DNA of 64,000 nt from a virus (Duplodnaviria > Heunggongvirae > Uroviricota > Caudoviricetes), in the IMG/VR virus record IMGVR_UViG_2568526312_000010, one strand, 5' to 3'. The position numbers were made by a program. Numbering within the stretch: position 1 is the first letter of the stretch; the number at the start of each line of letters is the position of its first letter. Of the stretch, positions 21,001 through 24,000 are shown piece by piece.

Positions 21001-24000
21001 CAAAACTCCCTATTTAAATATTCATTCCAAACACAGGGAGTCATAACAAACAGCCCCCATACATGACAACAAAAACCGGAGCCGGACTCCGGTTTTTGTG
21101 AAGCTGTCGGGCTATTTCATCCCGCCAATATTTTCCCACGTCCCGTCAGCACGCAGGATTTGCAGCGGTCTTACCACGCACTGTATCTGCTTTTTATCCG
21201 CATCCAGTATCACCACCTGCGTGATTACCCTGTCCTGCTCCGGGATAATACCATTCTCATCGGACTCCAGAATGTCTGCCGGTCCCAGTCGCAGCTGTGC
21301 TGTAAGTAACTCCCCGTTTTCACGGTCATCATGCTTTCCGCAACCGCACAGACGCTGCATAATTTTTTTTAATATGTTCATGTCATTCTCCTGTTCTGCC
21401 TGTATCACTGCCCACTTCATCCAGCCCCTTAACATCCTGCCACGGCCCGTCACCAAACCTGACCTGCAAATGCTGAAAAAAACCCTGAACCCGTGTGGCA
21501 TCTTTGGGGTCAAGAAAGGTCAGTCCGGTGATGAGTGCGCCATCTGTATCCGGGAACCAGCCATGGCTGTTTGTCTCAATAATGTTTCCCGGCCCCAGAC
21601 GGAACCGTATTTGCGTCTCCCCCGGGTCGCCCTTCGGTCCCTGAGGTCCGGTTGCCCCCACCGGGCCAGCCGCACCTGTTTCTCCTTTCGGTCCCCGTTC
21701 ACCGGTTGCCCCGACAGGGCCGGTGTCTCCACGCTCTCCTTTATCTCCCTTCGGCCCCTGAGGATCCGCGGGCTCCTGTTCCCCCTTTGGCCCGGGAGGT
21801 CCCACCACGGTGGGGATTCTGTTTACGGCTTCTTCCGCCGCTATCCTGCTTTGTTCCGCTGACTGTGCGCTTTCTGCTGACTCCCGGGCTTTTTCTGTTG
21901 CGGTCGTTGCATCCCTGGCTGCATTACCGGCTGCACTTTCTGCCGTCTTTTTTGACAACTCAGCATCTGTTGCACTTTGTAATGACTCACTGGCTTTTTG
22001 AGCGGCCGCAGAGGCCGAGGACGAGGACGCCTCCTCTGACTGCTTTGCAGCGGCTGCACTTTCTGCCGCCTGCCGGGCTGACTCCGATGCATCCCCTGCT
22101 GAAGTGTCAGCATTTGCCGCGCTCTCTTCTGCCTGACTGGCTGATATGCCGGCATTCCTCGCGGACGTCTCCGCCTCTCCGGCATTCTTCTTCGCCTCCT
22201 CAGCGTGACGCGCCGCTTCTTCCACCATCAGTTCAAAACGGCGCAGTGCCTCCGGCCGGACGTCATCCTCCGACATGGCACCGAGAAAATCATTCAGCGT
22301 CCCCGGTTGAGAATCTTCATACACGGTGATGGTCCCGGCATGTGACGGCGGGAACCCTTCCACCAACAGAATAACGCTGTACTGACCGTACTCAACGTCC
22401 ATGCTGTAACGACCGGCTTCATCCGGATTTTCAGAGGCCACCGTGTTCACCACCACCGTGGCGCTGTTACGTCTGGCTTTCAGTTGAATGGTGCAGTTCT
22501 CTACCGGTTTTCCTGTGCCGTCTTTCAGTACACCTGAAATCTTTACTGCCATATTCACCCCACAAAAAAGCCCGCCTGAACCGGCGGGCTGTCATAACAC
22601 TGTGTTACCTGGCTAATCAGAACTTATAACCGACACCCACGATGAAACCGTCAGTGCGCCAGTCGCCACTGCCGGAGCCTTCATAAGCAATATCAATGGC
22701 CACGGATTCGGTCGGGTTAAACTGCACGCCAGCCCCCCACGCCAGAGACGTGTTGCTGTGGCGACCGTCATCACTTCCGGTCAGCACATCGTGCGTTTTC
22801 CCCTTGTTGTCAGTTACGCGAAGATAATCCCCGGAGAAAGTCGACACACGGCTGTAAGCCACACCCGCCATCGCATACGCGCTGAACCATTCATTCACGC
22901 GCACAGACGGCCCCGCCATTACGCTGAACCAGCGGTTACGCACGGAATCTTCATGCCAGCGGGTATCGCTGTAACGGGTAAGCTGGCGATTCTTGTCTCC
23001 TGCATAGCTGAATGACGTCACCAGCCCCAGCGTGTCCGTAAATTCATAACGGTATTTCACGTTAATCCCGTTAAGATTATCGCTACCGGGAGCGCTCGTC
23101 CGGGCATGAAGATACCCCGCGCTCAGCGTGGCCTGCTGCTCAGACGCCCATGCAGGCGCGCCGGATACGGCCAGACAGATGGCTGCGGACAAAATGGCGG
23201 CATAAAGTTTACGCATAATTACCTCTCGCTTTTCTGCAATAAAAAAGGCGCCATTTCTGGCGCCCGTATATGGGTTATAAAATTCAGCTGATACTGATGC
23301 CTGCGGTGGCTTTCTTCATCACCACAACCAGCAAATCGCTGATACTTGCTGTGGGATACCAGTTATTCACCAGCCATGCTGACACCGAAAACTCCAGCGT
23401 CATGTGACCGTGACCGGCAGGCATATCAATAACGCCACTGTAAATCAGCGTATTATCCAGCGCGGTACGGTTATAAATTTCAGCACCGTTTTTCCGCACT
23501 ATCAGACGGCATGAGGAGTAAATATCAGTATGCTCTCTCTCTCATGTTTAGCGCCGCTGAATGCCACCGCCGGAATAACAATCTGCCGGTCAAACGGCTG
23601 ATCGTCATAAACCCTGACGGTAATGGTCCCTGATGGCCACCGTTCCGGTGCACGGGAGTCCCGGGGGAAAGCTTTGCCCACTGTTTTAACGAGATCGCCT
23701 TCAATCTGGTTCGCGGACAGTTTTCCCAGAACCCGACAGTTCTCGTTAATCGTGACGTTGTTGAGCGTCCCGGAGTTCGCATTCACACTGCCACTGATAT
23801 CCGCATTTTTAGCGGTCAGCTTTCCGTCTGATGTCAGGGAAAATGCCGGAGGATTGCCGCCACTGGTAATGGTGGGAGCCGTCAGATATTTCAGGAACAC
23901 TTCATTCATGAATATCTGATCGCCCTGACCAACAAACATCGGCTTTGTGTTGCCATTCGCAGGATTAATCATCGCAATCCTGTCTGCCGCCAGCAGCACC

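What the first reader, a model, noticed from the sequence alone, without database searches (positions are those of the whole stretch)
23284..23560. Tail-tip gene J is frameshifted inside a (GA)5G dinucleotide repeat
J is collinear with lambda J until a GAGAGAGAGAG run at ~23533-23543, after which the authentic C-terminal 71 codons continue in another frame. Removing one GA unit would give a continuous reading frame. The C-terminus is the receptor-binding region, so this is either an inactivating mutation, a slipped-strand on/off switch, or a sequencing error.
Basis: seen in the sequence. Interest (0 to 1): 0.45.

Follow-up and report, generated by a model that had tools for sequence, protein, structure and literature searches.

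The report
Old frameshift in prophage J gene
The tail-tip gene J of a decayed lambda-like prophage in E. coli O157:H7 is broken by one extra GA in a short GA repeat; the mutation is real, is inherited by almost the whole O157:H7 lineage, is already annotated in public records, and is ordinary prophage decay rather than a switch.

Summary
J lies on the minus strand (26762..23284). It contains GAGAGAGAGAG at 23533-23543, stops at 23502-23504, and continues in another frame. Deleting one GA gives an intact 1158-aa J.

The window is the Sp12-type prophage of E. coli O157:H7.
- **Not a sequencing error.** The same (GA)5G allele is in 216 complete genome records, including Sakai, EDL933, EC4115 and TW14359. 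NCBI's annotation pipeline marks the gene "frameshifted".
- **(GA)4G is the intact form.** It is found in about 686 E. coli records, in all 53 matching phage records, and at the orthologous locus of O55:H7 DEC5B and sorbitol-fermenting O157 493/89.
- The insertion therefore became fixed on the branch leading to typical O157:H7.
- **Already defective.** L was truncated and K and I were missing before the slip. This window adds an IS629 insertion and a frameshifted portal gene.

Rare length variants exist at the same locus: TX 265-1 and AC-3 have (GA)4G and NCCP 13946 has (GA)3G. (GA)6G was never seen. The tract is a mild slippage hotspot, not a phase-variation switch.

Already known; low interest.

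The parts
23284..26762 (-). Tail-tip / host-specificity gene J, a pseudogene of 3479 nt. It would be 3477 nt and 1158 aa if in frame.
   Evidence: Translation. Pfam finds FNIII-A_GpJ, Phage-tail_3, Ig_J, Ig_J_second, Phage_Tail_Tip and Ig_GpJ_C. The 100%-identical record Show KS 470-1 annotates it 'gpJ, frameshifted'.
23533..23543 (-). (GA)5G tract, the site of the +2 (one GA unit) insertion relative to the intact (GA)4G allele.
   Evidence: unique in the window, 0.01 expected. Alignments with intact orthologues show the 2-nt gap exactly here.
23502..23532 (-). Out-of-frame tail: 10 novel codons ([10 protein letters not shown]) and the premature stop TGA at 23504-23502. TAG follows at 23501-23499.
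23284..23532 (-). Displaced authentic C-terminus of J: 82 codons plus the stop, read in the frame two bases ahead of (equivalently one base behind) the upstream reading frame. This is the distal half of the receptor-binding domain.
   Evidence: Translation. Pfam PF12421 positions 65-135. Alignment to the lambda J and A8 gpJ structures.
22617..23216 (-). lom (Ail/Lom outer-membrane protein), directly downstream of J as in lambda.
   Evidence: Pfam PF06316, E=5e-118; annotation in related records.
26928..28141 (+). IS3-family insertion sequence (IS629/IS1203-like orfA and orfB, with the ALIL frameshift pseudoknot at 27209-27325). It lies between the truncated L gene and J. Coordinates are those of the ORFs, not the element ends.
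   Evidence: Pfam HTH_Tnp_1 and rve; Rfam RF01497; annotation.
28338..28700 (-). Truncated minor tail gene L. Only Pfam profile positions 3-93 of 206 are present. The K and I genes that should follow are absent.
   Evidence: Pfam. NCBI annotation reads 'incomplete; missing C-terminus'. Sakai Sp12 shows the intact L-K-I order for comparison.

Best explanation
This is a fixed, vertically inherited pseudogenising mutation. During replication, one extra GA unit was added by slipped-strand mispairing to a (GA)4G tract. The tract encodes ...K-H-E-R-E-H... in the C-terminal receptor-binding domain of the lambda-type tail-tip protein J.

The gene belongs to the defective Sp12-type lambdoid prophage of E. 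coli O157:H7. The +2 shift ends translation 10 codons later and removes the last 82 of 1158 residues, so the product cannot form the receptor-binding domain.

The insertion arose after the split from O55:H7 and sorbitol-fermenting O157:H-, and before typical O157:H7 diversified. It arose in a tail module that had already lost half of L and all of K and I, so it was effectively neutral. It has been carried passively since.

Shown here: the sequence facts, the population distribution and the order of events. Inferred: slippage as the mutational mechanism, and neutrality.
For: - **Frame.** Removing one GA restores a 1158-aa J. Its C-terminus aligns in full to the lambda J receptor-binding domain.
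- **Position.** The break lies inside PF12421.
- **Repeat lengths in 5426 complete E. coli genomes, with identical 45-nt flanks.** (GA)5G is in 216 records; every record listed at 100% that names a serotype is O157 or O157:H7. (GA)4G is in 686 records, (GA)3G in 3 (plus 1 with a mismatch), and (GA)6G in none.
- **Phages.** All 53 matching phage records span 99 nt, which means (GA)4G. They include PhiR55_1, VT1-Sakai and many Stx2a phages.
- **Ancestral state.** The orthologous loci in O55:H7 DEC5B and O157 493/89 have the same gene order: M, truncated L, J, lom, tail fibre, nleG genes, IS256. There J is intact, 3477 nt, with (GA)4G. The downstream 3' part of J is otherwise identical to the window.
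- **Order of events.** The L truncation and the K-I deletion are already present in those two genomes, so they predate the J frameshift.
- **Other lesions.** The identical-sequence record also has a frameshifted portal gene, partial L, an IS3-family insertion, and a truncated IS256 plus ISEc8 (window ORFs).
- **Literature.** Asadulghani et al. 2009 (PMC2669165) score Sakai Sp12 as 'D' (disrupted) for host specificity, repressor, integrase, recombination, portal and head. They found no excision, circularisation or packaging of it.
Against: The locus is not perfectly static within O157:H7.
- TX 265-1 belongs to the same IS629-bearing subclade. Its J differs from the window's only by -GA and one SNP, and is annotated intact.
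- AC-3 also has (GA)4G, together with two nearby synonymous SNPs. AC-5 spans a few bases fewer than the window at the same locus but was not inspected.
- NCCP 13946 is identical to Sakai over 5.7 kb except for (GA)3G.

These cases could be true reversions or contractions, gene conversion from paralogous J genes, or long-read assembly errors. I cannot tell which without reads.

Neutrality of the mutation is inferred, not measured. In Sakai the L-K-I genes are intact, so a restored J could in principle matter in that background.
Confidence: 0.9

Rival explanations
1. The GA tract is a slipped-strand contingency locus. It reversibly turns the receptor-binding end of J on and off. This could benefit the phage, or other resident prophages that borrow J in trans or by recombination.
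For: - The repeat unit is not a multiple of 3 and lies inside the ORF.
- Three lengths occur at the same O157:H7 locus in otherwise identical sequence: (GA)5 in the majority, (GA)4 in TX 265-1 and (GA)3 in NCCP 13946.
- That is many more changes per site than base substitutions in the same 5.8 kb, where near relatives differ by 0-2 SNPs.
- O157 prophages are known to complement and recombine with each other (PMC2669165).
Against: - Five dinucleotide units is shorter than the tracts of established phase-variable genes (my own knowledge of Haemophilus, Neisseria, Helicobacter and Campylobacter loci, not tested here).
- About 216 records hold the OFF length, against 1 clean ON revertant and 1-2 conversion-type ON alleles.
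- (GA)6G is never seen.
- Thousands of paralogous J copies matched the flank queries (about 5,470 places, not all with identical flanks). Only a handful of independent length changes were found.
- The ON state would still lack K, I and half of L, and the portal gene is frameshifted.
- Three of the four (GA)3G genomes carry additional nearby indels (SCU-484, UID2309220031 and C25), and SCU-484 also has frameshifted neighbouring genes, which suggests assembly error at least there.
Confidence: 0.04
2. It is a sequencing or assembly error in this window, and the true sequence is (GA)4G.
For: Dinucleotide runs are error-prone for some platforms. A few assemblies differ at exactly this tract.
Against: The identical 517-nt segment with (GA)5G is present in the listed complete genomes from many laboratories, including Sakai, EDL933, EC4115, TW14359, Xuzhou21 and 86-24. 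My recollection, not checked here, is that these span Sanger, 454, PacBio and hybrid sequencing. In total 216 records carry the tract with identical flanks. In the same genomes, paralogous J copies are assembled with (GA)4G, so the tract is not systematically miscalled.
Confidence: 0.02
3. It is programmed recoding. Ribosomes shift frame, or RNA polymerase slips, on the GA run, so that both a truncated and a full-length J are made, by analogy with the lambda G/GT tail-chaperone frameshift.
For: A tRNA-Glu reading GAG could re-pair perfectly two bases downstream on the repeat, and a +2 (equivalently -1) shift is what would restore the frame (inference from the sequence). Phage tail gene clusters do use programmed frameshifts (G/GT).
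Against: - There is no X XXY YYZ slippery heptamer.
- The out-of-frame arrangement is not conserved. Every functional phage and nearly all prophage homologues encode J in one frame with (GA)4G, and so do the direct ancestors of this locus.
- Efficient +2 shifting, or transcriptional slippage on a 5-unit dinucleotide run, is not an established mechanism in E. coli (my own knowledge).
Confidence: 0.01

Closest known systems
Prophage Sp12 of E. coli O157:H7 Sakai: host-specificity gene fragments ECs_2235, ECs_2234 and ECs_2233, and the equivalent 'gpJ, frameshifted' pseudogenes annotated by NCBI in EDL933 and other O157:H7 genomes
   Same: The last 337 nt of J, including the (GA)5G tract, are 100% identical. 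Downstream context is the same: lom, tail fibre, nleG genes, truncated IS256 and ISEc8.
   Different: Sakai's Sp12 has intact L, K and I. Its J is mosaic (194 differences from the window's) and carries a second, -1 frameshift at a C-run at J position 1108. The window has the ancestral L-K-I deletion plus an IS629 insertion, as in Show KS 470-1 and C1-057.
Bacteriophage lambda tip attachment protein J (PDB 8iyk, 8xcj) and 'A8 gpJ' (9wca)
   Same: The domain architecture is the same. The repaired C-terminal 173 residues align over their full length. lom and a tail-fibre gene follow J.
   Different: The repaired protein is 1158 aa against 1132 aa for lambda J. Here the gene is interrupted inside the receptor-binding domain and cannot produce it.
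Simple-sequence-repeat contingency (phase-variable) loci
   Same: A non-triplet repeat lies within a coding region, and unit gain or loss toggles the reading frame. Rare length variants are seen among isolates.
   Different: The tract is short (5 units). One length is nearly fixed across the lineage. The ON state would sit in a module that is non-functional anyway.

Membership tests
Lambda-type tail tip protein J (TipJ/gpJ) | Characteristic domain series, from the N-terminal FNIII-A domain and Phage-tail_3 through two Ig-like domains and the tail-tip fibre domain to the C-terminal receptor-binding domain | tested here: met
   All six Pfam families are found in order. PF12421 is split between the two ORFs.
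Lambda-type tail tip protein J (TipJ/gpJ) | A single continuous reading frame that encodes the complete receptor-binding domain | tested here: not met
   Premature stop at 23504-23502; the last 82 codons are in another frame. It is therefore a J pseudogene, not a functional member.
Lambda-type tail tip protein J (TipJ/gpJ) | Synteny H-M-L-K-I-J-lom-stf | tested here: inconclusive
   H, M, J, lom and the tail fibre gene are present in order. L is truncated, K and I are deleted, and IS629 is inserted.
SSR phase-variable contingency locus | Intragenic repeat whose unit length is not a multiple of three | tested here: met
   (GA)5G inside J.
SSR phase-variable contingency locus | Frequent ON/OFF length polymorphism among closely related isolates | tested here: not met
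   216 records carry (GA)5G. At the same locus there are TX 265-1 and AC-3 with (GA)4G, AC-5 with a shorter span that was not inspected, and NCCP 13946 with (GA)3G. (GA)6G was not found.
SSR phase-variable contingency locus | High measured switching rate within a clonal population | not testable with these tools
   This needs reads or amplicon sequencing of single-colony populations.
Programmed ribosomal frameshift (for example lambda G/GT) | A slippery site, and a two-frame arrangement conserved in homologues | tested here: not met
   There is no X XXY YYZ heptamer at the site. Homologues in 53 phage records and 686 E. coli records are in one frame with (GA)4G.
Pseudogene of a defective (cryptic) prophage | Frame disruption relative to intact orthologues, vertical inheritance, and other inactivating lesions in the same element | tested here: met
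   Intact orthologues in O55:H7 and 493/89. The allele is shared across the O157:H7 genomes listed. Portal frameshift, L truncation, K-I loss and IS elements are present. Sp12 was not excised or packaged in experiments (PMC2669165).

The most novel reading that the evidence does not exclude
The GA tract might be a low-rate reversible toggle. Its rare in-frame revertants, such as the allele in TX 265-1, would restore a complete J receptor-binding module in a cryptic prophage. That module could then be donated, by recombination or in trans, to the inducible prophages of O157:H7 and change their host range.
Probability: 0.04. Interest if true: 0.4.

Novelty: already known. Interest (0 to 1): 0.1.

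Why it matters
It matters little in itself. It is one of many documented lesions that make Sp12-type prophages of O157:H7 non-transmissible.

Two modest uses follow.
- The (GA)5G allele is a clean derived marker. It separates typical O157:H7 from O55:H7 and sorbitol-fermenting O157:H-.
- The few isolates with other tract lengths are a convenient test case for telling real slippage or gene conversion between paralogous prophage genes from long-read assembly error.

Tried and rejected
- **Sequencing error.** Rejected because the allele recurs in 216 records.
- **Other repeat lengths.** I ran synthetic queries with 3, 4, 5 and 6 GA units. (GA)6G was absent. (GA)3G was found in 4 genomes, and 3 of these carry additional nearby indels. 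SCU-484 also has several frameshifted neighbouring genes. UID2309220031 and C25 have a compensating C5-to-C4 deletion upstream. Those calls may be long-read artefacts.
- **Gene conversion versus slippage in the revertants.**
  - AC-3 carries two linked synonymous SNPs next to the tract. That fits conversion from a paralogue or mis-polishing.
  - TX 265-1 has no linked change. Conversion still cannot be excluded, because other O157:H7 genomes hold paralogous copies with identical flanks and (GA)4G.
- **Literature.** A search for papers naming this frameshift together with Sp12 found none. The Asadulghani 2009 table records host specificity as disrupted, without giving the nucleotide cause.
- **Programmed frameshifting.** Considered and rejected on lack of conservation.
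- **Total O157:H7 genomes.** I could not count how many O157:H7 genomes are in the collection, so the fraction carrying (GA)5G is approximate.

Full report
**What is in the sequence.**
The finding concerns the minus strand. A lambda-type tail-tip gene J starts at 26762. Its reading frame is open for 1086 codons and ends at TGA 23504-23502, followed directly by TAG.

The run GAGAGAGAGAG lies at 23533-23543. It is unique in the window, against 0.01 matches expected from shuffles.

The upstream frame reads ...[10 protein letters not shown] and then ten unrelated codons ([10 protein letters not shown]). The frame two bases ahead reads [19 protein letters not shown]...ATAGISIS to a stop at 23284.

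Deleting one GA joins the two parts into a 3477-nt ORF of 1158 aa. Adding two GA units would also restore the frame, with an extra Arg-Glu.

Pfam finds the full J domain series. The break falls inside PF12421, the C-terminal receptor-binding domain: profile positions 1-49 lie before the break and 65-135 after it.

The repaired C-terminal 173 residues align end to end with solved lambda J (8iyk residues 959-1131) and with 'A8 gpJ' (9wca).

The displaced authentic C-terminus is 82 codons. The 71 reported is the ORF measured from the first GTG.

**Where the window comes from.**
The 517 nt around the tract are 100% identical to many E. coli O157:H7 chromosomes.
- In Sakai the region is annotated 'prophage Sp12, lambda-like phage'.
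- In EDL933 and most other records NCBI annotates 'gpJ ... frameshifted'.
- The 5.8 kb from J to the tape-measure gene is 100% identical to strains Show KS 470-1 and C1-057.

The flanks of the window fit this identification. Downstream of J lie lom, a tail-fibre gene, nleG effector genes, a truncated IS256 and ISEc8. Upstream lie an IS3-family element (IS629-like, with its ALIL pseudoknot), a truncated L gene, M and the tape-measure gene.

**Is it a sequencing error?**
No. I made synthetic queries with 45-nt flanks and 3, 4, 5 or 6 GA units and searched 5426 complete E. coli genomes.

| Tract | Records with an exact or near-exact match |
|---|---|
| (GA)5G | 216 |
| (GA)4G | 686 |
| (GA)6G | 0 |
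| (GA)3G | 3, plus 1 with one mismatch |

Every record listed at 100% for (GA)5G that names a serotype is O157 or O157:H7. They include Sakai, EDL933, EC4115, TW14359, Xuzhou21 and 86-24. My recollection, not checked here, is that these were sequenced by different laboratories and technologies.

The same genomes also contain paralogous J copies assembled with (GA)4G. The tract is therefore not systematically miscalled.

**Which state is ancestral?**
All 53 matching phage records span 99 nt, which means (GA)4G. They include PhiR55_1, VT1-Sakai and many Stx2a phages.

A repaired 515-nt query found exact matches in only five records. Two of them are the orthologous locus in O55:H7 DEC5B and in sorbitol-fermenting O157 strain 493/89. 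Both have the same gene order: M, truncated L, J, lom, tail fibre, DUF1076/nleG, nleG7 and IS256. In both, J is intact at 3477 nt. In the alignment, the 3' part of J (roughly the last 1,800 nt) differs from the window only by the two-base gap.

On the accepted stepwise descent of O157:H7 from O55:H7 (established knowledge, not tested here), the extra GA is a derived insertion. It arose on the branch to typical O157:H7 and has been inherited since.

**Context: the module was already broken.**
In O55:H7 DEC5B and 493/89 the L gene is already truncated, and K and I are absent between L and J. Those losses therefore predate the J frameshift.

The window adds an IS629-type insertion at that junction. 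It also has a portal gene frameshifted at a G-run near its 3' end.

Asadulghani et al. 2009 (PMC2669165) scored Sakai Sp12 as disrupted for repressor, integrase, recombination, portal, head and host specificity. They detected no excision, circular DNA or packaged DNA for it.

The simplest reading is neutral decay: a replication slip in a short repeat within a gene that was no longer under selection.

**Is it a switch?**
The locus is not completely invariant.
- Of the 17 genomes that match the IS629-bearing arrangement over its full length, 14 span exactly the window's length.
- TX 265-1 is two bases shorter. Its J differs from the window's only by -GA and one SNP, and it is annotated as intact.
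- AC-3 has (GA)4G together with two synonymous SNPs 4 and 13 nt upstream of the tract. This is the signature of gene conversion from a paralogous J, or of mis-polishing. AC-5 also spans a few bases fewer at this locus, but I did not inspect it.
- NCCP 13946 is identical to Sakai over 5.7 kb except that the tract is (GA)3G.

The tract therefore changes more often than an average site. This is expected of a short simple repeat.

However, 3-4 variants among roughly 220 genomes, with no (GA)6G anywhere, is far from the behaviour of contingency loci. So is the small number of independent length changes among the thousands of paralogous copies that matched the flank queries (about 5,470 places, not all with identical flanks). 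In addition, an in-frame J here would still lack its partners.

Three of the four (GA)3G genomes carry further indels nearby (SCU-484, UID2309220031 and C25), and SCU-484 also has several frameshifted neighbouring genes. Some of these calls may be long-read artefacts.

I put the functional-switch reading at about 4%.

**Recoding.**
A +2 (or -1) shift on the run would restore the frame, and tRNA-Glu could re-pair on the next GAG. However, there is no slippery heptamer. The two-frame arrangement is absent from every functional homologue and from the direct ancestor of this locus. I consider recoding very unlikely.

**Comparison with what is known, and novelty.**
The object is a J pseudogene of the already described defective prophage Sp12. 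It is already annotated as split or frameshifted in public records, and it is listed as a disrupted function in the literature.

What this analysis adds is small:
- the exact lesion, one GA unit added to (GA)4G;
- its polarity, derived and absent from O55:H7 and 493/89;
- its timing relative to the L-K-I deletion;
- the existence of a few isolates with other tract lengths.

**Verdict.**
Its cause is an inactivating slipped-strand insertion that is fixed in the lineage. It is not an error and not a switch. It is already known and of low interest (0.1).

Noticed in passing
window 35256-37840 (-), break near 35370-35385: The portal gene of the same prophage is also frameshifted near its 3' end, apparently at a G-run (ACGTGGGGGGCTCG). 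NCBI marks it 'frameshifted' in the identical record, and Asadulghani 2009 lists the Sp12 portal as disrupted. I did not compare it with an intact orthologue.
   Followed up: partly
window 26928-28141 (+), 28338-28700 (-): An IS3-family element (IS629/IS1203-like; ALIL pseudoknot at 27209-27325) lies at the junction between truncated L and J. K and I are missing. The deletion is older than the IS: it is present without the IS in O55:H7 DEC5B, 493/89 and EDL933. Only 26 of 5426 genomes cover at least 80% of the 3.1-kb stretch spanning the IS junction (window 26000-29100).
   Followed up: partly
L001 (Sakai) 671-6517 versus window 23284-28700: Sakai's Sp12 has intact L, K and I and a mosaic J. 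That J has 194 differences from the window's, clustered in blocks, plus an extra -1 frameshift at a C-run at J position 1108. It keeps the same (GA)5G 3' end. This implies recombination with a paralogous prophage tail module after the GA insertion.
   Followed up: partly
L009 (UID2309220031) and L010 (C25), about 3420-3560: In two unrelated E. coli genomes the J ORF stays open through two indels: C5 to C4 in GCTTTCCCCCGGG, and (GA)4 to (GA)3. Together they create an out-of-frame patch of about 41 aa inside the receptor-binding domain, and the gene is annotated as intact. This could be a real double-frameshift variant or a systematic long-read error.
   Followed up: partly
L008 (NCCP 13946) 331-6027: An O157:H7-type Sp12 locus is identical to Sakai over 5.7 kb except for a 4-nt (two GA units) contraction of the tract to (GA)3G.
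   Followed up: yes
window 386-638, 4932-5106, 12316-12367, 13008-14252 versus 49542-49791, 52707-52881, 59727-59778, 60422-62893: The window holds two copies of a lambdoid early/late-region set: tRNA-Arg and tRNA-Met genes, sok antitoxin RNA, DicF RNA and an ExoVIII-type exonuclease gene. The first exonuclease copy is truncated to 414 aa. This fits two tandem prophages (the Sp11/Sp12 arrangement) joined through ISEc8 and a truncated IS256 at about 16147-18913.
   Followed up: no
window 19063-19731, 20423-20998 (-): Two NleG-family type III effector genes lie downstream of the tail-fibre genes. In this strain both appear as open ORFs, whereas Sakai annotates nleG2-4, nleG3 and nleG7 there as pseudogenes.
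   Followed up: no
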